IMG/VR virus record: IMGVR_UViG_3300033141_003979
Coordinates: 45,771 to 109,770 of that record
DNA length: 64,000 nt
Strand: one strand, 5' to 3'
Source of the DNA: a virus
Shown here: positions 41,932 to 64,000 of the stretch, piece after piece
How the letters are laid out: each line of letters opens with the position of its first letter
Numbering within the stretch: the first letter of the stretch is position 1
Position numbers and translations under genes: made by a program
The notes under the pieces: generated by a model
What the model was told of the DNA's origin: nothing
Database searches by the model: none
Seen by the model: only the letters and a program-made list of their open reading frames with translations

Positions 41932-42267
41932 ATGGCGGGGGCAAAAGAAAAAACTTATATAGATTGCAATGGTAAAAAAATTATTGCGATAGGACAAATT
42001 TATAAAATAATTTACCCAAATGGCAAAATATATATTGGGCAAGACAGAACAGATGATATAAATTATTTTGGAAGTGCAAATAGCCATATAATAGCAGCAA
42101 GCTTTACAAAAAAACAAAGGAGGTTATTTACTGTTACTAAAGAAATACTGTTTGAAAAAGCGCATTTAACAATTCAAGAACTAAACAGAATAGAGCGCAA
42201 ATACATTGCATTATATAATTCTGATGATCCTGTAATTGGGTACAATAGAACAAAAAGGAAGGAATAA
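41932..42267 (+). CDS. Minimal GIY-YIG domain protein
   Basis: GQIYKI..PNGKIYIGQ..YFGS...E..YI...GYN. Confidence 0.75.
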   Translation: MAGAKEKTYIDCNGKKIIAIGQIYKIIYPNGKIYIGQDRTDDINYFGSANSHIIAASFTKKQRRLFTVTKEILFEKAHLTIQELNRIERKYIALYNSDDPVIGYNRTKRKE

Positions 42268-51970: not shown

Positions 51971-51991
51971 GGAGGATAATTAAAATAATCC

Positions 51992-52020
51992 TTGATTTAA
52001 TTATAAAAATACTATATATT
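51992..52020 (+). promoter_or_regulatory. Sigma70-like promoter of endonuclease cassette 1
   Basis: TTGATT-N17-TATATT. Confidence 0.6.
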
Positions 52021-52025
52021 TATGT

Positions 52026-52128
52026 TAGATAATAAAGTAACAAATCATTCAAATTTCAGGCTTGAGAATCTTCATATTGCGAAGTATGAAGGCGTTGTTA
52101 CTAACGTTATCTGTTCTCAGGCCTTTTT
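52026..52128 (+). ncRNA. c4 antisense-like three-way-junction RNA, copy 1
   Basis: P1 AGGCTTGAGAA/TTCTCAGGCCT, P2 with GCGA tetraloop, P3 GCGTT/AACGT, U-tract; upstream complementary sites TAGATAA and AGTAACAA. Confidence 0.7.
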
Positions 52129-52144
52129 ATTTGGAGAGTCTAAT

Positions 52145-53074
52145 ATGGGTGAAAATAAAAGAATTTTAGGTGTTTGTTTTTATTGTGGAAAGAATGCATT
52201 TTATAGATTTAAAAATGGGAAATTATGTTGTAGCAATAATGTTTCTAAATGCCCAACCGTAAGAAAAATCAATAGTGAAAAAAATAAATTTAAATTTTGT
52301 AAAATTGAACATGCTAAAAGAAAAGCAGAAGGAGGACCGATATGTGCATGTGATTGTGGCAACAGAACAAAATGGAATAAAGACAAAGGAGAATATAATA
52401 AATATATAAATGGACATTGGGTTCGACATAACAATCCTAGTCGTGGTAAAGATAAATATGCTAAAAAAAAGAGAAGAAGGAGCCCATTATGTAAATGTAT
52501 CCCTCAATGCGGACAAAGAACAAAATGGAATCCTTGCACAGGAAAATATGATGATTATATCAAATATCACCATTTAAAAGGAGCCAAAAGAGACAAAAAG
52601 TTTTGTGAAAATCAATCTAAAAGAATGATTAAAAATAACCCTATGCAAAAACCAGAAATTGCTAAAAAGCAATCAGAAAGTTTAAAGGCGTTAGGTGACG
52701 ATCATCCATCAAGAAGACTAGAGCACCGCAAAAGAACATCTGAATATGCATTAAATGGGCATGCAACCTATATGTGTTCTTGCAATTCAAATCCATCTAA
52801 GCCACAAGCAGTATTATTTGAATTGATTAAATCTTTATACTCAACTGCTATACTCAATCATCCATCCTTAAATTTTTCTATTGATATAGCCATTCCTGAT
52901 CTAAATATTGCTATTGAATATGATGAGCCGTATTGGCATGATTTTGAAAAGGATAAAATAAGACAAAGAAAATTAGAGACAATAGGATGGAGATTTTTAA
53001 GATATATAAGTTATGTACCCACCATCAATGAATTAAAAAATAATATTTTAAATATAATTAACAAGGAGGGATAA
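52145..53074 (+). CDS. Free-standing endonuclease (Cys motifs + DUF559/Vsr-like PD-(D/E)xK domain)
   Basis: CACDCG..TKWN; C-terminal IDIAIP..NIAIEYDEPYWH...D..RQ..L...GWRFLR. Confidence 0.8.
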   Translation: MGENKRILGVCFYCGKNAFYRFKNGKLCCSNNVSKCPTVRKINSEKNKFKFCKIEHAKRKAEGGPICACDCGNRTKWNKDKGEYNKYINGHWVRHNNPSRGKDKYAKKKRRRSPLCKCIPQCGQRTKWNPCTGKYDDYIKYHHLKGAKRDKKFCENQSKRMIKNNPMQKPEIAKKQSESLKALGDDHPSRRLEHRKRTSEYALNGHATYMCSCNSNPSKPQAVLFELIKSLYSTAILNHPSLNFSIDIAIPDLNIAIEYDEPYWHDFEKDKIRQRKLETIGWRFLRYISYVPTINELKNNILNIINKEG

Positions 53075-53076
53075 AA

Positions 53077-54024
53077 ATGTCTCTGTATCAGGATTATCGG
53101 CCAAAAAATTTCGGTGAGATTGTTGGAAATAAAACAACCATCAATACAATAAAAAATAAAATTTATGGGGAAGACCCACCGCATGCAATTATTTTACACG
53201 GTCCAAGAGGATGTGGAAAAACTACTATCGCCAGAATTATATCAGAAGAATTAGGATGTAAAATTAAAAGTAACGATTTTGTTGAACTTGATGCTGTTCA
53301 AACGGGAGGAATTGATACAGCTAGAGAAGTTAGGCAAAATATGAATTTTTTACCAATGGAATCAAAATGTAGGGTTTGGCTTATTGATGAGGCTCAAGAT
53401 GCTTCAGGCAAATTCCAAGCTGGTCTTTTAAAAGCATTAGAAAGCGGCCCAGCCCATTGTTATTTTATTTGGTGTACTACAGATTTAAGTAAAATTATTA
53501 CAACTGTTAAATCAAGATGTACTCAATGGAAGGTTAATTTATTAAAAGACTCACAAATAGAAAAATTGATTGCATGGGTTCTAAAAGGGGAAGAGTTTAC
53601 AATCGACCAGAAGATAATTGATGAAATTATTGCCGCCTCCGAAGGTTGCCCAAGAGAGGCTCTAGTGACTCTAGATCAAATCATTGACCTAGAGCCTGAT
53701 AAAATGATTAATGCCATCCAGCAGACCAAAGCCGACAGGGAAAGCAAGGAATTATGTCAGGCTCTACTCAAGAAAGAATCATGGCCGAGGCTAGCAACAA
53801 TTATCAAAGGCCTTGATCCCTCTAATCCTGAAAGTATCCGGCGAGCTGTGATTGGGTATATGGCAAATGTGGCTCTGGATAAGCAGGGGTATAACAAAGG
53901 GAACAAGGAAAGATGGGAAGGAGTGGCTGTACGAGCAGCTCTTGTGTTTGATTGTTTTGAAAAACCTGTCTTTTATACCGGTATGGGAGGGATTACATTT
54001 GCGGCCTATAACACAACTTTATAG
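53077..54024 (+). CDS. dnaX: Clamp loader, DnaX (gamma/tau)-like AAA+ ATPase
   Basis: LYQDYRP..F.EIVG, GPRGCGKTT, IDEAQ, SRC, EGCPREA. Confidence 0.9.
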   Translation: MSLYQDYRPKNFGEIVGNKTTINTIKNKIYGEDPPHAIILHGPRGCGKTTIARIISEELGCKIKSNDFVELDAVQTGGIDTAREVRQNMNFLPMESKCRVWLIDEAQDASGKFQAGLLKALESGPAHCYFIWCTTDLSKIITTVKSRCTQWKVNLLKDSQIEKLIAWVLKGEEFTIDQKIIDEIIAASEGCPREALVTLDQIIDLEPDKMINAIQQTKADRESKELCQALLKKESWPRLATIIKGLDPSNPESIRRAVIGYMANVALDKQGYNKGNKERWEGVAVRAALVFDCFEKPVFYTGMGGITFAAYNTTL

Positions 54025-54033
54025 AAAATAAAC

Positions 54034-54063
54034 TTTTGAAACTTTGATATTTTCTTATAATAA
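54034..54063 (+). promoter_or_regulatory. Repeated phage promoter-like motif, copy 3
   Basis: Identical 30-mer. Confidence 0.75.
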
Positions 54064-54091
54064 GACATAAGAAGGAGAAAGAAAAGAGGCA

Positions 54092-54577
54092 ATGGTAACC
54101 GCACGTAAACAGATTGGATGTAAACTCAATGCTGAATTGTGGATGCAAATTAAGATATTAGCACTGAAGAAAGGTATCACAAGTGGAGAGATGCTTGAGA
54201 TGGCGATGAAGGAATATCTTGAATTGAAAGATTGGACAGCTCGCATGACAATCTCCACAAAAAAAATAATAAATATAGAACTTCATGAAGAACCACCACT
54301 ATGTGAATGTGGATGCAGAGAGAAAGTGATATTAGGTACAAATGGAAGGTGGAATAGATTTATCCCCGGACATCATGCTCATGGTAAAAGAGGCCCAAAT
54401 TCTCCTAATTGGAAAGGAGGAATAGCAGATTATGAAAAGATGAAAAGTCTTGCTAAAAAACGAGATATTCCAATAGGAAAATTAAAAGAAAGACTCAGAC
54501 AAATGGCATTAAGTACTATAACTCAAACAACTAAGGAGGTTGAACAATGCCGACAATTACAGAACATATTAAGTTAG
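54092..54577 (+). CDS. Ribbon-helix-helix-like protein fused to a CxCGC domain
   Basis: RKQIGCKLNAELW..IK.LA...G.....LE.A..YL; PLCECGC...WNRFIPGH; NWKGG. Confidence 0.6.
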   Translation: MVTARKQIGCKLNAELWMQIKILALKKGITSGEMLEMAMKEYLELKDWTARMTISTKKIINIELHEEPPLCECGCREKVILGTNGRWNRFIPGHHAHGKRGPNSPNWKGGIADYEKMKSLAKKRDIPIGKLKERLRQMALSTITQTTKEVEQCRQLQNILS

Positions 54578-55116
54578 TAAAAAATTTCAAAGTACAATCA
54601 AATGAAAGTACTCTGAAAATTCATAATATTCTATTAGATATTAAGGACGGGCAATTCTGGAAGAGTAAAAACTATTACAAAGATCAAGCTGCTTATACCT
54701 ACAAAGAACATAGCAAGATGGATTTTAACTTGTTTATTGAGGCCGTTTTTGGCAAGAGCGGAATGTGGTTCAAATCTATAGAAAGAATTTTATCGCTTGA
54801 TAATGGAGAAGAACTTTTACTGAAGCATGGACGCAGCAATATGGTTACATATTATGATAGTACAAATGAGGAAAGAGTAGCTATCCTGACAGCAATAGAG
54901 AGTGGGCGAAAACTTGCTCGTTTTAATGCAGTGAAAAGAGAACTATATCCAGCTATCAAATCCTCTTCTATTACTAATATCTGGGAACGGAAATATAAGG
55001 AAATAAAAAAGAAGTATAAAATAATGGAAAAAGAATATAAGGCACTAAAACAGGAATTTAACAATTACAAAAAGAAGGTTGAATTTCTCATGGATGGAAT
55101 AAGAAAAGTAGCCTAA
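54547..55116 (+). CDS. Hypothetical protein with C-terminal coiled coil
   Basis: SD AAGGAGG. Confidence 0.7.
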   Translation: MPTITEHIKLVKNFKVQSNESTLKIHNILLDIKDGQFWKSKNYYKDQAAYTYKEHSKMDFNLFIEAVFGKSGMWFKSIERILSLDNGEELLLKHGRSNMVTYYDSTNEERVAILTAIESGRKLARFNAVKRELYPAIKSSSITNIWERKYKEIKKKYKIMEKEYKALKQEFNNYKKKVEFLMDGIRKVA

Positions 55117-55120
55117 TATC

Positions 55121-55150
55121 TTTTGAAACTTCGATATTTTCTTATAATAA
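55121..55150 (+). promoter_or_regulatory. Repeated phage promoter-like motif, copy 4
   Basis: One mismatch to the 30-mer; shares AAACATAACCCAAAA downstream with copy 2. Confidence 0.75.
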
Positions 55151-55196
55151 GACATAAGAAACATAACCCAAAAATAGAAGGAGAAGGAGTAATCAT

Positions 55197-55688
55197 ATGC
55201 CAGAATTCAACTTTGAGGAAGATGTGGCAATTGACCTAGATGATCTGCATGAAGAATGGAGAAGCCATGCTCAACTACGGCATAAATATGCCTCAGAAGT
55301 TTCGCATCTAGAAACTGTGGCTAAAAAAGCACATGAGAAAGTTAAGATCACTCGGTCAAGGCTGATTCGAGAAGCCAAAGAATTAAAATTATCAAGTGCT
55401 GATTTGCGAGAAGCATATTACCGGGAACATAAAGATCACATCACCGCTAAGAATAATCAAACAGATGCAGAATATAATCTAAGCATGGCATGGAATGCCG
55501 TGAAATCTATGGATGATCGGAAAGTTGCCCTTGAAAAAGAAGTTTCTCTTTGGAAAGGAAACTACTTCGCTACCCCAAGAGAACATAGGGATGTTGAGCC
55601 AGGTAAACGGGTCATAGATACAGGCAGGGCTGAAGCAGAAGCCAAACAACGGGAAGGCCTTAACAAGAGAGTTCGAAAAGATGCCTGA
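55197..55688 (+). CDS. UvsY-like recombination mediator
   Basis: D.AID.DDL.EEW...helical protein ending W..NYF.TP; upstream of SSB/RecA. Confidence 0.6.
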   Translation: MPEFNFEEDVAIDLDDLHEEWRSHAQLRHKYASEVSHLETVAKKAHEKVKITRSRLIREAKELKLSSADLREAYYREHKDHITAKNNQTDAEYNLSMAWNAVKSMDDRKVALEKEVSLWKGNYFATPREHRDVEPGKRVIDTGRAEAEAKQREGLNKRVRKDA

Positions 55689-55789
55689 TCTTTCTGATCT
55701 TCTAACAAATGTAGGTTTATTTATCGGAGGGATCATTCTTATAGGAATATTATCAAGAATAGTATCAAAAGTAGTTTTCAAAACCTTTT

Positions 55790-56926
55790 ATGAGGAGAAG
55801 AAAAAAAATGAGCAAGACAAAAGCAGAAGAGAGAAGAGAAAAATTACGGAACAGAAGTAGACAGGCCGTCAAGACTAGAGATCAGAAAGGTTTGGGGAAG
55901 AAGTCGGCACTCGATTGGGCAAGGCTTGTAGGAAAGAAACCTCCAAATTTCATCCCTACGACTGGAAAGGATAATCTAAATCTGATTGACATCTTGCCAT
56001 TTGTTATTACACAATCCTGGTATAAAGATCTGCGAACATTCTCAGGCCTAACAACCAATCTAGAAGTTGGTGACTGGGATTATAAATTGGAGATCCCAGT
56101 GCATAAAAATGTAGGGGAAGACAACGATACCTTCCTTTGCCTCCGTCTAGCCTTTGGAAAGAAATGCCCTCTCTGTGAGGAAATGTTTAAAGAATATGAA
56201 AAAGACAATCCTGATGAAAAAAAGATCAAACCATTGAAGCCATCCTGGCGGGATTATTTCAATATCTATGATTACAACGATGAAGACAAAGATCTCCAGG
56301 TTTGGGAAGATGTCAGTTATCATCTTTTTGAGAAGTACTTTCTTGCAGAGGCAGACGAGGGGGAGAATACTATCCTATATAGCGACATTGAGGAAGGAAA
56401 AACTATTGAGATCAAGGCTCAGGATAAAACTATAGGTTCAGGGAAACCATTTCCTGAAGCCCAAAATATTGAATTCAAAAATAGGGATAAATACGAAGAA
56501 GAAATTGTCAATGATACTGTTTCTTTTGATTCCTTAGTCAAGATTCCTACATTTGAAGATGTCTCACGAATCCATCGTGGACTAGAAGATGAAGGAACCC
56601 CTGACCAAGAAAAAGTACCAGCAGGGGAAGAACCTCCTGCTCCATCAGGAAGAAGGCGACAAACCAGGCAACAACCAGCAAAAGAGGAAAACCCTCCGTC
56701 TGAAACACAGGATCAAGACCAGGCCTCCGGCCCTGCCTGCCCATACAAAAAAGTATTTGGGGCAGATTGTGATCCGACCGCAGATGAATGCAAAAAATGT
56801 CCGGAGGAAACTTTCAGTACCTGTGCCGATAAGTTGGATGAGATAGAAAAAGGTGAGAAGGAAACCCCTCCGCCGCCTGCAACTACCACGCGTCGTAGAA
56901 GGCAACAGCCAGGCAATAGAAGGTAA
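55790..56926 (+). CDS. gp32-like single-stranded DNA-binding protein with extended C-terminus
   Basis: IDILPF, VH..VG....FLC...GKKCPLCE, LKP..R..FN; context. Confidence 0.6.
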   Translation: MRRRKKMSKTKAEERREKLRNRSRQAVKTRDQKGLGKKSALDWARLVGKKPPNFIPTTGKDNLNLIDILPFVITQSWYKDLRTFSGLTTNLEVGDWDYKLEIPVHKNVGEDNDTFLCLRLAFGKKCPLCEEMFKEYEKDNPDEKKIKPLKPSWRDYFNIYDYNDEDKDLQVWEDVSYHLFEKYFLAEADEGENTILYSDIEEGKTIEIKAQDKTIGSGKPFPEAQNIEFKNRDKYEEEIVNDTVSFDSLVKIPTFEDVSRIHRGLEDEGTPDQEKVPAGEEPPAPSGRRRQTRQQPAKEENPPSETQDQDQASGPACPYKKVFGADCDPTADECKKCPEETFSTCADKLDEIEKGEKETPPPPATTTRRRRQQPGNRR

Positions 56927-56931
56927 TCCTG

Positions 56932-57138
56932 ATGTCTAAAATTGAATATATCACATCTACTGAGGCCCTAGAAATCATCAAGAGGAGTTGGTTAGCTGAG
57001 TCAGGGGGATATAAACCTAATCTTACTACTCTAATTGGATGGGTCAAAAAATATAATCTTGGATTCAAGTTTGCAGGCAAATACAGGATTGATAAGGTAA
57101 AGCTCATTGGGTTCTTGAAACAAGGGGAATCAAAGTGA
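56932..57138 (+). CDS. Small MerR/excisionase-type HTH protein
   Basis: ITSTEA...TLIGWVK...G.K.AGKYRID. Confidence 0.6.
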   Translation: MSKIEYITSTEALEIIKRSWLAESGGYKPNLTTLIGWVKKYNLGFKFAGKYRIDKVKLIGFLKQGESK

Positions 57139-57148
57139 TACCCAACCC

Positions 57149-57379
57149 CGTTATATATCTAGAGTACGACCTGCATATCGTCAGACAGCCTTTGGTTTTA
57201 AAAACGTTGAAACCGGGAACCTCCGGCCTAACTAGGTATATAACGGTTTTATATAATTGGATTGGGCATGCGGGGAACGATGAATAAACCGTCGGGGTAG
57301 GGAAGCCTACTCAATTTGATACGGTCTCGTTGTGATAAACCCTGTCCCAAGTGCTACATCGTCGCTAGGATCATGCCCA
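57149..57379 (+). ncRNA. Candidate two-domain structured RNA upstream of recA
   Basis: Closing stems CCGTTATATATCTAG/CTAGGTATATAACGG and TGGGCATG/CATGCCCA with nested hairpins; no ORF in the gap. Confidence 0.5.
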
Positions 57380-57404
57380 TTCAAAAAAGAAGAAAGAAAA
57401 TCCT

Positions 57405-58565
57405 ATGATGAAAAGACGTAGACAATCACCTAGCCTAACACAACAGGTAGAGGAATCAGCAGAAAAGAAGGTTGAGAGAATAGGAGATGGGATTGGACCA
57501 GATCCTAAAACCATCACCCCGGACAGACTTATTCCAAGCGGGGTTACATTGCTGAATTGTGCCTGTAGTGATAATCCCAGAGGGGCATTCGCTAAAGGAA
57601 CAATCAATACTATACCTGGAAAATCTGCCAGCGGAAAAACCATTTTAATGCTCAATACATTGGCCGCTTGTGCCTCAACACCAGATTTTGACAGTTATGA
57701 ATTAATTTTAGATGATGCTGAAGAAGCACAAGAATTTGATCTTGATTATCTATTCCCTATATTGGCTGGCAGATTAAAGGCCCCAAGATATGATATCAAA
57801 GGTTTGCCAATCCATAGTAACACTATTGAAGATTTTGAAGGCAATATGCTGTTGAAATGCAAATCTGGCAAGCCTTTTATTTATGTACTGGATAGTTTGG
57901 ATACATTATCGTCAACGGCAGAATTAGAACGAGAATATGCCAATGCCAAAAAGAATGCCAAAACATCCGAAGAAAAGGAAAAAGCCAAACAATCATATGG
58001 CACTGAAAAGGCACGAATTATTAGCCAGACATTAAGAATGGTCAACGGCAAGATAAAAAATAGTGATAGTGCTTTATTTCTTGTCCAACAAACAAAACAA
58101 AATATGAATAGAATTTCTAAATTTCAACCAGACTGGGTAACATCCGGCGGGGAAGCCCCATTCTTTTATTCTTTTCATAGAATATATACCAATTCCTTTA
58201 AAAGCCATACAGGGGAATCAAAAGGAATAAAACATAAAATAGGAGGGCGAACCCAAGCACAAGTTGTCAAAAATAAATTAAATGGTAAAAAACGAACCGT
58301 TGAATTTGATATATATGAAGATCTGGGAATTGATGATCTTGCTAGCAATATTGATTTTTTGAAGAGAACAGGCAAGATCAAAATCAGTGGGGCTTTCATG
58401 TTATTCCCTGAAATACTAGGAACTGAAAGAATGTATCGGGTGGACTTAATTAAACATATTGAAAAAGAAAATCTTGAAACTGTAATACAAGATATCGTTG
58501 GAGAAGAATGGAATCAAATTGAACGTGATATCCGGTTATCAGATCGGAAAAGACGATTTTGTTGA
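57405..58565 (+). CDS. RecA/UvsX-like recombinase
   Basis: IPSG..LLN, GKSASGKT, DAEEA, VLDSLD, TSGG.A..FY, VVKNK. Confidence 0.88.
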   Translation: MMKRRRQSPSLTQQVEESAEKKVERIGDGIGPDPKTITPDRLIPSGVTLLNCACSDNPRGAFAKGTINTIPGKSASGKTILMLNTLAACASTPDFDSYELILDDAEEAQEFDLDYLFPILAGRLKAPRYDIKGLPIHSNTIEDFEGNMLLKCKSGKPFIYVLDSLDTLSSTAELEREYANAKKNAKTSEEKEKAKQSYGTEKARIISQTLRMVNGKIKNSDSALFLVQQTKQNMNRISKFQPDWVTSGGEAPFFYSFHRIYTNSFKSHTGESKGIKHKIGGRTQAQVVKNKLNGKKRTVEFDIYEDLGIDDLASNIDFLKRTGKIKISGAFMLFPEILGTERMYRVDLIKHIEKENLETVIQDIVGEEWNQIERDIRLSDRKRRFC

Positions 58566-58584
58566 TAATAAAAAAGGGGGAGTT

Positions 58585-58770
58585 ATGAAAAATCGCAGAA
58601 TTGAAGTGAGAATGGGAAAGACTGTCAATCTGGGCAATTTTGAATCATTTAGACTTGATATAGGTATGGCAGCAGACATATCCGATGAAGAAGATATTGA
58701 CCTAAAATATGATAAAATGGTTAAGATTGTTGAAAACAAATTGGATGAAGAGATAAAACCCAGTGAATAA
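58585..58770 (+). CDS. Small conserved phage protein
   Basis: KTVNLGNFES.R.D motif; SD GGGGGAG. Confidence 0.65.
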   Translation: MKNRRIEVRMGKTVNLGNFESFRLDIGMAADISDEEDIDLKYDKMVKIVENKLDEEIKPSE

Positions 58771-59278
58771 ACTCAAAGAGATAACACATGTACAATTAAC
58801 AAAACTTCGCCAAAAACAATTGGCAAAACAAAGTTATGTTTGTCCTATTCTAAACCAGATAATTGATTTTGAATCCTCGGCCTTTGACCACAAACACCGA
58901 ACAAAGGCAGAAAAGATTGGGGAAGATGGGAAGGGGCTATTAAGAGGTGTCATTCACAATCAAGCAAATGTGATTGAAGGCAAAATTGCCAAATTGTATA
59001 AGCGATATGGGTTGCATAAATTCTTACCACTACCAGAGCTGCTCAGAAATATTGCTGATTACATTGAAAATCCACCAATGAACCCTGAATATATACACCC
59101 TAATGAAAGGGAATTCAAAATGCTTGGGAAACGAGACTTCAACAGGATCGTTAAATACTACTTTCAAATGTATCCGAGATGCAAAGTATTACCTGAGTAT
59201 CCTCGCAGTGGCAAGTTAAGCAAGAAATTTGAAGAATTGCTTAAAAAGGCAAACAAATTACATTTTTTAGGTAAATAG
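58763..59278 (+). CDS. Endonuclease VII-like resolvase
   Basis: Q..VCPIL...DHKH...G.LRGV....AN..EGK. Confidence 0.8.
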   Translation: MNKLKEITHVQLTKLRQKQLAKQSYVCPILNQIIDFESSAFDHKHRTKAEKIGEDGKGLLRGVIHNQANVIEGKIAKLYKRYGLHKFLPLPELLRNIADYIENPPMNPEYIHPNEREFKMLGKRDFNRIVKYYFQMYPRCKVLPEYPRSGKLSKKFEELLKKANKLHFLGK

Positions 59279-59670
59279 TGAATACCAGAAATGCTGCTAA
59301 AATATTTAGAGAAAGAACAGGTTATCAATGTCCTTTCCCATGTGAAATAAAAGGAGACAAAAAAATGGATGACAAAACACGAACAGAAATAATGAAAATG
59401 GCTGTTGAATTATATGATAGAAAACACAATACTCCAGAAATTCAAGAAGCAATAAAACAGTTATTTACTAATAAATCTACCAGTCAAATAAATTTTATAG
59501 TTACAAGTGCTATTGATATGGTAAAATCATTTGACAAGGCCGTTGATGATGCAGGGGGATCTGGATGGCAAATAGAGGAATTATTAAAAATGACTTTTAT
59601 GGATTTACTTTCTTCTTTAGCCACAAATCATGTGAGGTTTGTTTTTGAAAGGCCTGAAGAAAATGCTTGA
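59278..59670 (+). CDS. Hypothetical protein
   Basis: ORF in operon; likely start at the internal ATG after AAGGAG. Confidence 0.6.
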   Translation: MNTRNAAKIFRERTGYQCPFPCEIKGDKKMDDKTRTEIMKMAVELYDRKHNTPEIQEAIKQLFTNKSTSQINFIVTSAIDMVKSFDKAVDDAGGSGWQIEELLKMTFMDLLSSLATNHVRFVFERPEENA

Positions 59671-60913
59671 TTCAATTCACCTCATTAACTTTCGTAGCCA
59701 TAAGAATACCTTCATAGAACTCCATCCTGGTATCAATATTTTCACAGGTCCAAATGACAGTGGAAAAACTAATGTACTCCGGGGCATTGATCTCGTTGTC
59801 AATAATCACCCAGCCGGAGACGATTATATTTCAAAATGGGGTGGGAATCTAGATGTCAAGCTTGGCATTGATGGCAAGCAAGTTGGCAGATTCAGAGATG
59901 CTCATTGGGACGAAGAGCTTAAAAGATTCAAGGCAGGAACAAAAAACTACTATACCCTGACTCATGAGGATGGAGAGGTTGAGCCCCCATTCAAATCATT
60001 TGGCAGGGGAAAGGTTCCAGAAATCATTGCCAATCTTTTGAATATTTCTTCAACCAACATTCATTTCCAACTTGATGGACCTTTTCTACTCAACAAATCT
60101 CCAGCAGACGTGGCAAGGCATTATAACGAGATAGTAAATCTTGACATCATAGACAGGACCATCTCCAACATTGCCGGCACACTGCGTAAGGAAAGGGCTG
60201 AACTAAAAGTTGAAAAGGCCAAGATCGAAGAGAAAACAGAAAAGTTAGAAGAATACGATTGGCTGCCAAAGGCAGAGTGTGAGCTTGCCCGATTAGAGAA
60301 GATGCAGAGGGCTATCAGTGGTCTAAAATCTGACTGGACAGAACTGCATGGCCTGATCAGGGATCATGAAAGGCTAACTGCTGTAAGCATAGAATTAGAT
60401 AAAATCGTCAAGCATGATGAAGGAGTAGAAAAATTATTATGGTTAGACAAAGAAATCAAGGCCGGGGATGTAGAATATCTGGCCCTGAAAAGCCTGATTG
60501 ATAAACTTGAGGCACTGACAGAAACATCCCAACAGATGGACAGGATCGTCAAATATGAAAATACAGTGATCCAATTGTTGCAGCAGGCAGAGAAAGTCAA
60601 GTTACTGAGGGGAGACGTAGAGGCACTAAAGGCAATCGTTGAAGAGGCAGCAAGACTAAAGAAAGAGGAAAGTAAATGCCAGGAAATTATCAAACATGAA
60701 GATGAAGTTTCCAGATTGGTTGAATTGGATACTAAGATTGCCGAGAACACAGACGAATACAATGCCTTGTTTGATCTTGTTGAAAAATGGGAAGGACTGG
60801 ATGGACAGCTTGTAACAGCGGACAATAATCTGGCAAATCTTGAGTTAGAATTCAAGGAGGCGATGCCAGAAATTTGTCCGTTGTGTGAGCAAGAGATTAA
60901 AAATACTCCTTGA
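59663..60913 (+). CDS. SbcC/Rad50-like ATPase, N-terminal half ending at the zinc hook
   Basis: NFRSH, GPNDSGKT, Q-loop FQLD, coiled coil, terminal CPLC; no Walker B or signature motif. Confidence 0.85.
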   Translation: MLDSIHLINFRSHKNTFIELHPGINIFTGPNDSGKTNVLRGIDLVVNNHPAGDDYISKWGGNLDVKLGIDGKQVGRFRDAHWDEELKRFKAGTKNYYTLTHEDGEVEPPFKSFGRGKVPEIIANLLNISSTNIHFQLDGPFLLNKSPADVARHYNEIVNLDIIDRTISNIAGTLRKERAELKVEKAKIEEKTEKLEEYDWLPKAECELARLEKMQRAISGLKSDWTELHGLIRDHERLTAVSIELDKIVKHDEGVEKLLWLDKEIKAGDVEYLALKSLIDKLEALTETSQQMDRIVKYENTVIQLLQQAEKVKLLRGDVEALKAIVEEAARLKKEESKCQEIIKHEDEVSRLVELDTKIAENTDEYNALFDLVEKWEGLDGQLVTADNNLANLELEFKEAMPEICPLCEQEIKNTP

Positions 60914-60938
60914 TTTTCTCTAAAAGAAAGACTATACT
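60910..60938 (+). promoter_or_regulatory. Sigma70-like promoter of endonuclease cassette 2
   Basis: TTGATT-N17-TATACT. Confidence 0.65.
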
Positions 60939-60944
60939 TATGTT

Positions 60945-61047
60945 GAACAGTATGATAACGATCCAGAATTCAGAGCTTGAGAGTTTTCATGTCGTGAGGC
61001 ATGGAAGTGTTGTTATCGACACTGTTCCCTCTCAGGCTTTTTCTTTT
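60945..61047 (+). ncRNA. c4 antisense-like three-way-junction RNA, copy 2
   Basis: P1 AGAGCTTGAGAG/CTCTCAGGCTTT, P2 with GTGA tetraloop, P3 GTGTTG/CGACAC, U-tract; upstream complementary sites GAACAGT and GATAACGA. Confidence 0.7.
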
Positions 61048-61059
61048 GGGGAAATTGAC

Positions 61060-62024
61060 ATGAGTAGATTTAGAAGGAAAGATGCAGCTCCATTGTGTGC
61101 ATGTGGCTGTGGAGTATATGTTAAATGGAATATAAATTACAAAGGATGGAATAGATTTATTCAAGGGCATAATTCTAAGGGCGAAAACAATCCTATGTAT
61201 GGTAAAGAATCTTGGAGTAAAGATAAAACTAATATCTTCTCAGAAGAAATATTGAAAATAATATCTAATGCCAAAAAAGGTGAAAATAATCCTATGTATG
61301 GCAAAGTGCCTTGGAATAAAGGTAAGACTGATGTTTATTCAGAAAAAGCCTTGAGGATGATGTCCAATATCAAAATAGGCAAGAAACGCTCTACTAAGAC
61401 AAAACAGAAAATGTCTATTGCGAGGATGGGCGAAAAGAATCCAAATTATGGTAAAAGGCACACCATTGAGACAAAACAAAAAATTTCACAGACCCGGATT
61501 GAAAATAATCATATACCTTGGAATAAAGGCAAAAAACTCCTTGAATTTTCTAAAAGAATGATGGGAGAAAAAATCCTATGTATGGGAAAATAGGAAAAGA
61601 CAACCCTAATTATGGCACAAAACGGACTCCCGAACAGCGAGAAAAATTGAAAGGTAGATGTGGTCCATTATCGGCTGCCTGGAAAGGAGGCATAGCCGCA
61701 GACCCATATTGTGATGTTTGGTTGGATTGGGAGTATAAACAATCTATCAAAGATCGTGACAATAACAAATGCCAGAATCCTGATTGCTGGGGGAAGTGTA
61801 ATCATTTACCTCTACATTTACATCATATAAATAATGATAAAAAAGATTGCCGCCCCAAAAATATCATAACACTATGCAATAGTTGCAACGGGAGAGCACG
61901 GGGGAGCAAAGAATTTTCAAGAGAATGGTGGGTAAAATTCTATCAAAATATCATGACTAAAAAATATGAATACGAATTTGTTCAGAAGGCAAGAGGTTTT
62001 TTGAGGGAAATAAGCAGCCTATGA
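61060..62024 (+). pseudogene. NUMOD3-repeat HNH homing endonuclease with a 1-nt frameshift at ~61570
   Basis: CACGCG, repeated GENNPMYGK; one extra A in the A6 run restores GEKNPMYGK and joins the C-terminal LHHIN..K.DCRPKN.ITLCNSCN HNH domain. Confidence 0.8.
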
Positions 62025-62284
62025 TTCTCATTGAAAAAGATTCACCTATGGCGATATTCTTAGGAGAGGTAATCCCAAAACTGACTTCTCCTGAAACTGA
62101 GTTAGCCGCTTGCCCACATTGTAAAGAACGAATTTTCTTTCCCATTGTTGCAAAGGAACAAGATATAAGAGCATTTCAACAGTTAATCGGGATCACAATG
62201 GAATATCTGCATGAGAAGGGCATAGTCCAGCAAGTGTTTGATGATCTGAGGAAAAAGGTTAATGAAAGGATAAAATTGCAGTGA
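62021..62284 (+). CDS. Hypothetical protein
   Basis: 87-aa ORF coupled to neighbours. Confidence 0.55.
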   Translation: MILIEKDSPMAIFLGEVIPKLTSPETELAACPHCKERIFFPIVAKEQDIRAFQQLIGITMEYLHEKGIVQQVFDDLRKKVNERIKLQ

Positions 62285-63222
62285 CCCGATTCAAACGACA
62301 AACCAAACAATCTAAAGCCACTGCCATCCTAGCAGCAGACCTTCACATTCGACCAGATACGCCTGTTTGCCGTACCGATGACTACTGGGCTGCGCAGGAA
62401 AGGAAGATCGACTTTATACTTGACTTGAGGAAACAGCATGATTGTCCCTTGCTCGTGGCCGGCGACTTAGGCAATTTCCCACTCAACAACGGCTGGCCGA
62501 CATGGCTATTAGAGTGGACAATTAATAAGTTTGAAGGCCATGAAATCATAGCGATACCTGGGCAACATGATTTACCAAACCATAAGATTGAATTATTTGA
62601 AAAATCAGGCATGGGTGTTTTGGATGCGGCTGGAGCAATTAAAACAATATTTGAACCATATATAATTAATCTTCTTTGTAGCAACACATTTACTTTATAT
62701 CCATTTTCTTATAGTCAAGAAATTGATTCTCGATATTGTATAGATGGCCCGATAAATATCGCCATGACCCACCAAATGGTCATAGAAAACAAACCACTTT
62801 GGCCAGGCCAGGAAGCACCAAGAGGGCATCAATTGCTAAAGAAATTCCCTTCTTATAACCTCATCCTTTCAGGCGATAACCACCATCCTTTCATAGCTGA
62901 ATACGAAGGCCGTCTTCTCGTAAATCCTGGCTCACTCATGCGCATGACAGCAGACCAGGAAGATCACAAGCCCCGTGTATATCTTTGGTATGCAGAGACA
63001 AATGAAATCGAAGCCGTATATTTACCGATTGAACAGGGAGTAATCAGCCGGGAACATATTGAGGCAGCAGAAGATAGAACCAACCGTTTTGCAACTCTGA
63101 TTGAACGAGTCCGGGAAGATGTAGAAATTCAACTCTCATATACGGATAACCTAGAAAGGTACTTTGGAAGATTTAGGACACAGAAACAAGTTAAGGAAAA
63201 AATATGGGGGGTGGCAGTATGA
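62281..63222 (+). CDS. SbcD/Mre11-like metallophosphoesterase nuclease
   Basis: ADLH, AGDL, GQHD, THQ, GDNH, NPGSL.R. Confidence 0.9.
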   Translation: MTRFKRQTKQSKATAILAADLHIRPDTPVCRTDDYWAAQERKIDFILDLRKQHDCPLLVAGDLGNFPLNNGWPTWLLEWTINKFEGHEIIAIPGQHDLPNHKIELFEKSGMGVLDAAGAIKTIFEPYIINLLCSNTFTLYPFSYSQEIDSRYCIDGPINIAMTHQMVIENKPLWPGQEAPRGHQLLKKFPSYNLILSGDNHHPFIAEYEGRLLVNPGSLMRMTADQEDHKPRVYLWYAETNEIEAVYLPIEQGVISREHIEAAEDRTNRFATLIERVREDVEIQLSYTDNLERYFGRFRTQKQVKEKIWGVAV

Positions 63223-63831: not shown

Positions 63832-64000
63832 ATGAATCTCCAAACTATTCGCAAACAACTAGAACGCAAGAAGGGGCAAGCCCAACAGATTGAACTGGAT
63901 CTGAAGCAAGCCACTGATTCTCACGAATCTATTGAAAAGGAAATCGGCATCACTGAAAAAGCCCAGGCTATAATTGTCGCTGTAGCAGAGAGCACGCAGA
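63832..64000 (+). CDS. Partial coiled-coil ORF, probable C-terminal half of split SbcC
   Basis: MNLQTIRKQLERKKGQAQQIE...KAQAIIVAVAESTQ, open to the window end. Confidence 0.55.
   Translation, partial: MNLQTIRKQLERKKGQAQQIELDLKQATDSHESIEKEIGITEKAQAIIVAVAESTQ

What the first reader, a model, noticed from the sequence alone, without database searches (positions are those of the whole stretch)
51992..61062. Two homologous c4-like three-way-junction RNAs with compensatory changes, each gating a different free-standing endonuclease
Seen: at 52058-52124 and 60972-61040 the same architecture recurs: TTGATT-N17 promoter, P1 closing stem plus U-tract, P2 with a GNRA loop (GCGA vs GTGA), short P3, then SD and an endonuclease gene (PD-(D/E)xK type vs HNH). 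Each copy has its own matching upstream targets. P3 TTGTTACT pairs with AGTAACAA and junction TTATCTG with TAGATAA in copy 1; TTGTTATC pairs with GATAACGA and ACTGTTC with GAACAGT in copy 2, so RNA and targets co-vary. Both RNAs also lie in an open frame continuous with the nuclease. Established: this matches the P1/P7 c4 antisense architecture, known for antirepressor control. Inference: a portable promoter-RNA-nuclease cassette with orthogonal RNA specificities that silences toxic nucleases, or an RNA-antitoxin/exclusion system.
Basis: partly seen in the sequence, partly recalled or inferred. Interest (0 to 1): 0.8.

Follow-up and report, generated by a model that had tools for sequence, protein, structure and literature searches.

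The report
c4-like switch RNA before homing endonucleases
Each of two selfish DNA-cutting-enzyme genes in this uncultured phage is preceded by its own promoter and a small three-armed RNA that can fold in two exclusive ways; this uncatalogued RNA family (63 distinct copies found) most likely decides whether the nuclease gene is transcribed and translated.

Summary
From 5' to 3' they carry a sigma70-type promoter, two 5' boxes, a three-way junction (P1, P2 with a GNRA loop, P3), a U tract, the SD and the nuclease ATG. The phage (109.8 kb) has four copies. A covariance model found 80 copies (63 distinct) in viral and metagenome contigs. They precede HNH, PD-(D/E)xK and GIY-YIG homing endonuclease genes.

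Covariation supports two mutually exclusive folds:
- OFF: the junction plus a helix (P0) that pairs the SD. This is terminator-like and masks the SD.
- ON: the 5' boxes pair with the P3 loop and junction strand J3/1.

The boxes are private to each copy. Cognate duplexes average -16.6 kcal/mol against -7.0 for non-cognate ones.

The topology matches P1 c4 point for point, including upstream a1/b1-type sites. However, the Rfam C4, c4-a1b1 and int-alpA models do not match, and there is no downstream a2/b2 site. It is c4-like but not a C4 family member.

My best reading is a co-transcriptional attenuator and translational switch, possibly with c4-style feedback in trans. No expression data exist.

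In 43 of 63 copies the nuclease frame stays open through the whole RNA. This is unexplained.

This scan has noted other three-armed endonuclease leaders on other genomes. None resembles this one in sequence.

The parts
51982..52020 (+). Copy 1 promoter: A-rich upstream stretch, -35 TTGATT (51992-51997), 17-nt spacer, -10 TATATT (52015-52020)
   Evidence: The motif is kept in 13 of 13 first copies and in 50 of 62 family members. The transcription start is inferred at about 52026-52028.
52026..52043 (+). Copy 1 leader boxes. TAGATAA (52026-52032) pairs with J3/1; AGTAACAA (52036-52043) pairs with the P3 loop.
   Evidence: It is the only full match on the + strand of the genome.
52048..52135 (+). 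Copy 1 structured core: P0 (52048-52054 with 52129-52135, covers the SD), P1 (52058-52069 with 52113-52124), P2 (52070-52091, GCGA loop), P3 (52092-52107), J3/1 (52108-52112), U tract (52124-52132)
   Evidence: Fold; model hit of 146 bits; covariation.
52145..53074 (+). Homing endonuclease 1: Cys-rich N-terminal modules and a PD-(D/E)xK (MTES_1575 / DUF559-like) C-terminal domain. SD GGAG at 52133-52136.
60900..60938 (+). Copy 2 promoter: -35 TTGATT (60910-60915; its TGA is the stop of the Rad50-like gene), -10 TATACT (60933-60938)
60945..60961 (+). Copy 2 leader boxes. GAACAGT (60945-60951) pairs with J3/1; GATAACGA (60954-60961) pairs with the P3 loop, with one G-U pair.
60963..61050 (+). 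Copy 2 structured core: P0 (60963-60969 with 61044-61050), P1 (60973-60984 with 61028-61039), P2 (60985-61006, GUGA loop), P3 (61007-61022), J3/1 (61023-61027), U tract (61038-61047)
   Evidence: Fold; model hit of 142.9 bits; covariation.
61060..62024 (+). Homing endonuclease 2: NUMOD3 repeats (61060-61593) and the HNH domain (61578-62024), separated by a -1 frameshift in an A run
52022..52144 (+). Copy 1: upstream open frame in phase with the nuclease ATG. It starts at an ATG 2 nt after the -10 box. The copy 2 equivalent is 60940-61059.
   Evidence: The frame is open in 43 of 63 copies, element lengths differ by multiples of 3, and the peptide is not conserved.

Best explanation
Each locus is a self-contained regulatory leader of a mobile homing-endonuclease cassette.

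A sigma70-type promoter starts an RNA whose first ~20 nt carry two short boxes. About 60 nt later come their complements: the P3 loop region and the J3/1 strand.

As the RNA is made, the boxes pair with these complements. This long-range helix is the ON fold. In it P3 and P1 cannot form, no terminator forms, and the SD is free.

Once the 3' strand of P1 is out, the more stable three-way junction plus P0 can form. This is the OFF fold. P1 followed by the U tract acts as an intrinsic terminator, and P0 pairs the SD.

The balance between the folds sets how many transcripts reach the nuclease gene and are translated.

The boxes are private to each cassette, so several cassettes in one genome are controlled independently.

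Shown: both folds, their covariation, the private specificities, and the association with nuclease genes.

Inferred: the transcription start, termination at the U tract, the direction of the effect (ON versus OFF), and whatever tips the balance.
For: - Three-way junction and P0: 95.2% of cells paired against 35-53% in slid controls, and 23 of 34 pairs changed on both sides, on 63 distinct copies (on the first 13).
- P0 pairs the SD region, with 6 of 7 pairs changed on both sides.
- Long-range helix: 76.1% of cells paired against 25-39% when slid, 235 double-change cells against 97 +/- 10, and all 15 pairs co-vary.
- Cognate box/complement duplexes average -16.6 kcal/mol against -7.0 for non-cognate ones. 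The cognate is best in 47 of 63 rows. None of 10,000 permuted pairings gave a mean below -8.6.
- A transcript cut just before the P1 3' strand folds into the long-range helix in 60 of 63 copies. The full leader folds into P1 in 63 of 63. The mean difference is -9.9 kcal/mol.
- The promoter is kept in 50 of 62 copies, and the first box begins about 6 nt after the -10 box.
- A U tract follows P1 directly in every copy printed.
- Of 54 downstream ORFs, 41 carry an HNH, PD-(D/E)xK or GIY-YIG domain.
- Precedent: T-even phages restrain homing endonuclease genes with RBS-masking hairpins and 5' terminators (PMC2988022).
Against: - There are no expression data. No sequencing run could be listed, so the start site, the 3' end at the U tract and the read-through fraction are untested.
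- The two folds share few nucleotides with P1. Exclusion of P1 by the long-range helix rests on nested-structure folding and a topological argument (zero-length linker), not on a 3D or kinetic model.
- Covariation cannot tell pairing in cis from pairing in trans.
- The full-length RNA strongly favours the OFF fold, so the ON fold would have to act kinetically.
- Most family members were retrieved with a pattern that fixes the P1 sequence. P1's invariance is therefore partly an ascertainment effect.
- The A3 and A4 alignments were fitted to the junction structure.
- The conserved open frame through the element (43 of 63) is not explained by this model alone.
Confidence: 0.6

Rival explanations
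1. Trans-acting c4-type antisense RNA. The terminated ~105-nt RNA, or a processed junction, is the functional product. Its P3 loop and J3/1 strand bind the boxes of other, nascent or read-through, transcripts of the same cassette. Binding stops those boxes from pairing in cis and so enforces termination and SD masking. On long transcripts it would also cover the initiation region of the upstream in-frame AUG. The result is private negative feedback, or 'immunity', for each nuclease cassette. This may act on top of the cis switch.
For: - The topology is the same as P1 c4, including a1/b1-type upstream boxes in the same order.
- A promoter placed directly before a terminator would make a small RNA.
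- Between sister copies in one genome the specificity regions diverge faster than the rest: 0.67 vs 0.93, 0.72 vs 0.90 and 0.45 vs 0.84 identity.
- No within-genome pair is cross-reactive: 0 of 34, against 243 of 3872 between genomes.
- Some members carry the box complement in a large c4-like P3 loop, for example L020.
- The boxes lie 1-4 nt after the upstream in-frame ATG.
Against: - In most copies P3 has a 4-nt loop, so half of the recognition segment is buried in the stem.
- There is no downstream a2/b2-type site, and no other full + strand site in the genome.
- The within-genome orthogonality count is not significant on its own (about 2 expected, 0 seen).
- Pairing in cis has a large kinetic advantage.
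- No RNA data exist.
Confidence: 0.25
2. Translation through the element is the key event. On transcripts that come from upstream genes, ribosomes start at the ATG in or next to the -10 box. They read through the RNA in phase with the nuclease. This melts the terminator and P0 and yields an N-terminally extended nuclease. The RNA fold matters only for untranslated transcripts from the cassette's own promoter.
For: - In 43 of 63 copies the nuclease frame has 0 stops across the element, against 188 and 145 stops in the other two frames.
- 41 of these 43 have lengths of 130, 133, 136 or 139 nt, whereas the other 20 copies have lengths in all three classes mod 3.
- 36 of the 43 have an in-frame ATG at or in the -10 box.
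- All three by-eye-aligned copies of this phage differ by 3-nt indels.
Against: - 20 of 63 copies have in-frame stops yet keep both RNA folds.
- The encoded peptide is not conserved; for example, Leu/Pro changes track stem compensation.
- The upstream ATG has no SD and lies upstream of the expected start site of the cassette promoter.
- The downstream ATG has a conserved SD and a conserved N-terminus.
Confidence: 0.1
3. The element is only a promoter and an unusually branched intrinsic terminator that insulate the cassette. The box complementarity has no function.
For: A P1 stem plus U tract is present in all copies. Terminators at the 5' ends of T4 mobE and segF are known.
Against: A terminator needs neither P2, P3 nor P0. 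It also does not need a co-varying long-range helix kept across 63 copies.
Confidence: 0.03
4. It is an RNA antitoxin or exclusion system in which the RNA neutralises the nuclease protein or targets a competitor.
For: The idea rests on analogy only. Nucleases can be toxic, and the RNA is abundant by design.
Against: - There is no repeat array or processing signature of type III antitoxins.
- The only cognate targets on the + strand are in the same leader.
- Three unrelated nuclease folds share the RNA, which argues against a specific protein-RNA fit.
Confidence: 0.02

Closest known systems
c4 antisense RNA of phages P1/P7 (Rfam RF01695, with c4-a1b1 RF03163, clan CL00128)
   Same: - A three-way junction with a closing stem.
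- A second arm capped by a stable tetraloop.
- The third arm's loop and the J3/1 strand act as two recognition segments.
- Matching a1/b1-type boxes lie upstream in the same transcript and in the same 5'-3' order.
- It has its own sigma70 promoter.
- Specificity is set by co-varying short segments (compared).
   Different: - The Rfam models do not match: E > 10, whereas P1 scores 68.8 bits.
- P1 is 12 bp rather than 17 bp.
- The RNA ends in a U-tract terminator rather than being cut out. RNase P processing of c4 is my recollection, supported by paper titles.
- There is no downstream a2/b2 site over an RBS.
- The SD is masked instead by helix P0.
- The boxes sit at the extreme 5' end, 20-30 nt before the junction.
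- The regulated genes are homing endonucleases, not icd/ant.
RBS-masking hairpins and 5' terminators of T-even homing endonuclease genes (I-TevI, I-TevII, I-TevIII, segB, mobE, segF)
   Same: RNA structure around the SD, and terminators at the 5' end, hold down a free-standing or intron-borne endonuclease gene (PMC2988022).
   Different: - Those elements are single hairpins that are relieved by a late promoter inside the hairpin.
- This element is a conserved three-way junction with a second, co-varying alternative fold and private specificity boxes.
- Here the promoter lies upstream of everything.
Antisense-RNA-driven transcription attenuation of plasmid rep genes (pT181, pIP501, pAMbeta1) - from my own knowledge
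   Same: The leader has two exclusive folds, one of them a terminator. Pairing of a short RNA with the 5' part of the nascent leader would select the terminator fold.
   Different: There the antisense RNA is made from the opposite strand. Here the complementary segment lies on the same strand within the same transcript, and action in trans is unproven.
int-alpA RNA motif (Rfam RF02996) and other three-armed endonuclease leaders noted by this scan on other genomes
   Same: They are small three-armed RNAs in front of phage homing endonuclease genes, with loops that match nearby sites (earlier notes; not checked here).
   Different: - RF02996 finds nothing in this genome at E <= 10.
- No sequence look-alike is on record in the scan.
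- Those notes describe targets downstream at the RBS. Here the targets are upstream at the 5' end, and the SD is paired by a separate helix.

Membership tests
Rfam C4 (RF01695) | The covariance model scores at or above the gathering score (45 bits) | tested here: not met
   No C4 hit at E <= 10 on either locus or in the whole genome. No gathering-level Rfam hit in the window. The same model scores 68.8 bits on P1.
Rfam C4 (RF01695) | Three-way junction with recognition segments in the P3 loop and the J3/1 strand | tested here: met
   P1 c4 fold and Rfam consensus compared.
Rfam C4 (RF01695) | Upstream a1/b1 sites in the same transcript, complementary to the two segments | tested here: met
   The P1 annotation places a1 and b1 upstream of c4. 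Here the boxes lie at 52026-52043 and 60945-60961 and co-vary. The c4-a1b1 model itself (RF03163) does not match.
Rfam C4 (RF01695) | Downstream a2/b2 target overlapping the RBS of the regulated gene | tested here: not met
   For each of the four copies, the only full two-box match on the + strand of the genome is its own leader.
Rfam C4 (RF01695) | Mature ~77-nt RNA released by processing that acts in trans | not testable with these tools
   No RNA run could be listed.
Rfam int-alpA (RF02996) | The covariance model matches | tested here: not met
   0 matches at E <= 10 in the genome, and none.
Intrinsic (Rho-independent) terminator | A G+C-containing stem followed directly by a U run | tested here: met
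   P1 (10-12 bp) is followed by 4-6 U in all copies. The simple scan did not list it because the stem is branched. Termination itself is untested.
Attenuator / two-state leader | Two mutually exclusive folds, both conserved | tested here: met
   Exclusivity rests on nested folding and topology, not on experiment.
RBS-sequestering leader of homing endonuclease genes | The SD is paired in a conserved helix | tested here: met
   P0: 87% of cells paired, 6 of 7 pairs changed on both sides.
Free-standing homing endonuclease gene | A nuclease catalytic domain plus DNA-binding modules, intergenic between phage core genes | tested here: met
   MTES_1575 and NUMOD3 plus HNH in the window. The flanks are a 5'-3' exonuclease and clamp loader, and Rad50-like and Mre11-like genes. 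Family-wide tally. Cleavage and homing are untested.

The most novel reading that the evidence does not exclude
The element is a programmable, same-strand antisense device. Each homing-endonuclease cassette carries a private c4-like RNA. Through two short re-writable segments, this RNA recognises only the 5' boxes of its own cassette's transcripts, in cis and in trans. That would give an early pulse of nuclease followed by self-imposed silencing, which amounts to cassette-specific 'immunity'. The conserved in-phase open frame would mean that ribosomes arriving from the upstream phage gene can read through the terminator. The mobile element would then not block the host operon it sits in. Together these would make a new class of orthogonal riboregulators that co-mobilise with three unrelated nuclease families.
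Probability: 0.25. Interest if true: 0.88.

Novelty: new variant of a known kind. Interest (0 to 1): 0.76.

Why it matters
How free-standing homing endonucleases are kept harmless to their own phage, and how a mobile cassette avoids disturbing the operon it lands in, is known only for a few T-even genes with simple hairpins.

This work finds a conserved, portable RNA device shared by HNH, PD-(D/E)xK and GIY-YIG cassettes in many uncultured phages. It has two covariation-supported folds and short, fast-evolving specificity boxes.

The finding matters in three ways:
- It extends the c4 design, previously tied to antirepressor control in P1-like phages, to a different task.
- It offers dozens of natural, apparently orthogonal variants of one riboregulator.
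- It gives a directly testable system: box swaps, compensatory mutations and supply of the RNA in trans.

Tried and rejected
- Rfam: nothing at gathering level on the window. At E <= 10 on both loci only snoRNA and IRES noise appeared. C4 and int-alpA models on the whole genome found nothing.
- tRNA or tmRNA: none.
- Ribozyme cores (for example the hammerhead CUGANGA/GAAA) were considered by eye. The junction strands (1, 0-1 and 5 nt) are too short, so I rejected them.
- Megablast of 11 kb against deposited phages: no match.
- Public sequencing runs: none was listed, so no reads could be laid.
- An unconstrained duplex scan of the complement segments against the whole genome was not discriminating. 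G-U-rich chance duplexes of -20 to -28 kcal/mol outrank the real leader sites. I replaced it with an ungapped two-box match.
- I tried to define the cassette borders from relatives that lack the insert. Six loci with a 64-67% identical clamp loader have a different upstream gene and no RNA element, so the borders stay undefined.
- The pattern scan of bacterial and archaeal genomes gave 25 stretches, none of which is a real member.
- A purely protein-coding reading of the element is rejected. The peptide is not conserved, and 20 of 63 copies carry in-frame stops while keeping the RNA pairs.
Full report
**What is there**

The window is the last 64 kb of a complete 109,770-bp viral record.

Copy 1 runs as follows:
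- -35 TTGATT (51992-51997), a 17-nt spacer and -10 TATATT (52015-52020)
- two boxes, TAGATAA (52026-52032) and AGTAACAA (52036-52043)
- a three-way junction: P1 (52058-52069 with 52113-52124), P2 with a GCGA loop (52070-52091), P3 (52092-52107) and a 5-nt J3/1 strand
- a U tract, SD GGAG (52133-52136) and ATG 52145

Copy 2 has the same plan at 60910-61062.

The cores fold into the same junction with z-scores of -6.7 and -5.5; none of 200 shuffles folds as well. P0 pairs a leader segment (52048-52054; 60963-60969) with the SD region (52129-52135; 61044-61050).

Gene 1 (52145-53074) has a PD-(D/E)xK-type C-terminus. The evidence is Pfam MTES_1575 at E 1e-6, below Pfam's own cut-off, and DUF559 hits in homologues.

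Gene 2 has NUMOD3 repeats (61060-61593) and an HNH domain (61578-62024). A -1 frameshift in an A run splits them.

The cassettes sit between replication and recombination genes. Copy 1 lies between a 5'-3' exonuclease and a clamp loader. Copy 2 lies after a Rad50-like N-terminal half.

**A family, not a pair**

A covariance model built from three copies finds four copies in this genome, at 132-148 bits. The two outside the window precede another HNH gene and another PD-(D/E)xK gene.

Pattern scans followed by the model gave 9 more copies in IMG/VR contigs and 67 in metagenome contigs. That makes 80 matches, of which 63 are distinct. None of 25 pattern matches in bacterial or archaeal genomes is real.

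Of 54 downstream ORFs of at least 60 aa:
- 31 are HNH-type
- 8 are PD-(D/E)xK
- 2 are GIY-YIG
- 2 carry a treble-clef DUF4379 domain
- 3 have only the shared Cys-rich N-terminal module
- 8 are unassigned

The leader is therefore a portable partner of three unrelated nuclease folds. The promoter is kept in 13 of the first 13 copies and in 50 of 62 overall.

**Two conserved folds**

*The junction plus P0.* On the 63 distinct copies 95.2% of pair cells are standard pairs, against 35-53% when partners are slid. There are 389 double-change cells against 105 +/- 12 in shuffles. P2, P3 and P0 vary on both sides at nearly every pair (for the first 13).

There are two caveats. The alignment was fitted to this structure. 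Most members were also retrieved with a pattern that fixes the P1 sequence, so P1's invariance is not evidence.

*The long-range helix between the 5' boxes and the P3 loop/J3/1.* Here 76.1% of cells pair against 25-39% when slid. There are 235 double-change cells against 97 +/- 10, and all 15 pairs change on both sides. The leader-box columns carried no pairs in the model; the P3-side columns were placed by the model's P3 states.

Cognate duplexes average -16.6 kcal/mol against -7.0 for non-cognate ones. The cognate is best in 47 of 63 rows. None of 10,000 permuted pairings gave a mean below -8.6 (for the first 13). G-U pairs occur in these helices, which points to RNA rather than DNA pairing.

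*The two folds exclude each other in nested folding.* A transcript ending just before the P1 3' strand adopts the long-range helix in 60 of 63 copies. The full leader adopts P1 in 63 of 63 and is on average 9.9 kcal/mol more stable.

The box complement abuts the P1 3' strand with no linker. From topology I infer that a complete long-range helix and a complete P1 cannot coexist. I did not model this in three dimensions.

**Comparison with c4**

I fetched the annotated P1 immI region and folded c4. c4 has:
- a 17-bp closing stem
- a UUCG hairpin
- a third hairpin whose loop is b'
- a 7-nt J3/1 strand that is a'
- a1 and b1 upstream in the same transcript
- a2 and b2 downstream before icd

The element here shares most of this: the junction topology, the tetraloop arm, the two recognition positions, and the upstream boxes in the same order. 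In both, the J3/1 partner lies 5' of the loop partner.

It differs in several ways:
- The C4 and c4-a1b1 models do not match at E <= 10, although C4 scores 68.8 bits on P1.
- There is no second target. Each copy's only full two-box match on the + strand is its own leader.
- P1 is followed directly by a U tract.
- The SD is masked by P0 rather than by the antisense segments.

The element works like c4 in design but fails the membership tests for that family. Int-alpA, which earlier notes of this scan linked to other endonuclease leaders, also does not match.

**Mechanism**

The best-supported reading is a co-transcriptional switch.
- ON: the boxes are paired, no terminator forms, and the SD is free.
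- OFF: the junction forms, with terminator-like P1 plus U tract and the SD in P0.

This fits what is known for T-even endonuclease genes, which use RBS-masking hairpins and 5' terminators (PMC2988022). The present device is far more elaborate.

Whether the junction RNA also acts in trans, as c4 does, is open.

In favour of trans action:
- A promoter feeding straight into a terminator would make a small RNA.
- In sister copies within a genome the specificity regions have diverged much more than the rest: 0.67 vs 0.93, 0.72 vs 0.90 and 0.45 vs 0.84 identity. P2 is identical between copy 2 and the copy at genome position 11196.
- No within-genome pair is cross-reactive: 0 of 34, against 243 of 3872 between genomes. 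That count alone is not significant.

Against trans action:
- The P3 loop is only 4 nt in most copies.
- Pairing in cis has a kinetic head start.

**An unexplained feature**

In 43 of 63 copies the nuclease frame has no stop anywhere in the element. The other two frames have 188 and 145 stops in the same sequences.

41 of these 43 copies have lengths of 130, 133, 136 or 139 nt. The remaining 20 copies have lengths in all three classes mod 3. 36 of the 43 have an in-phase ATG at or inside the -10 box.

The peptide itself is not conserved. Its changes follow stem compensation, for example Leu to Pro.

The ATG lies upstream of the expected start site of the cassette promoter. It could therefore be used only on transcripts coming from upstream genes.

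My guess is that ribosomes reading through the element let host-operon transcripts pass the terminator. This is a low-confidence inference.

**Earlier notes and novelty**

Two first-reader notes describe the other two copies in this genome, and I confirmed both. The scan has also recorded three-armed leaders before endonuclease genes on other genomes. Those mostly have downstream RBS targets, and some resemble int-alpA. None resembles this element in sequence.

Full-text searches found no paper linking c4-like RNAs to homing endonucleases.

I rate the element as a new variant of a known kind.

**Limits**

There are no RNA data. The start site, termination, the direction of regulation and cis-versus-trans action are all inferred.

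Noticed in passing
window 61565-61595: The HNH endonuclease gene after copy 2 is split by a -1 frameshift in an A run inside a NUMOD3 repeat. The frames are 61060-61593 and 61578-62024. It could be a homopolymer assembly error, a pseudogene or slippage.
   Followed up: partly
window 59639-60913 and 63832-64000, continuing at G000:C1:34-480 (L213): The Rad50/SbcC-like ATPase is encoded in two separate genes. The N-terminal half ends at a CxxC hook, directly before the copy 2 cassette. A C-terminal piece with a Walker B-like LGLDEP motif (sub-threshold SMC_N match to profile positions 151-213) starts at 63832 and runs across the record's 34-bp end overlap. The Mre11-like gene (62281-63222) lies between the two.
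   Followed up: partly
G000:C1:481-1253 (L213), outside the window: A fifth endonuclease cassette (Cys-rich N-module in 508-801, PD-(D/E)xK part in 864-1253; frameshifted) lacks the RNA. A stretch resembling the promoter spacer of copy 2 is joined almost directly to the SD-ATG region, as if the leader had been deleted. The -35 box is also mutated.
   Followed up: partly
L210:2954-4855, L211, L212 (relatives of the clamp loader gene 53077-54024): In three related viral contigs the clamp-loader ORF carries an in-frame insertion of roughly 280-300 aa near residues 39-51. This looks like an intein. The window's copy has none.
   Followed up: no
window 54092-54577: A 161-aa ORF right after the clamp loader matches the Cys-rich N-terminal DNA-binding module of the endonucleases (local jackhmmer E 8.5e-15). 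It shows no catalytic domain and has no RNA leader.
   Followed up: no
window 41934-42267: A small GIY-YIG-domain ORF (local jackhmmer E 3.7e-27) has an ordinary SD and no leader RNA. Not every nuclease-like gene of this phage carries the element.
   Followed up: partly
window 63967-64000 = G000:C1:1-34: The record's 'direct terminal repeat' is a 34-bp overlap that lies inside a gene. The contig is therefore best read as a circularly closed assembly, not as a genome with physical terminal repeats.
   Followed up: partly
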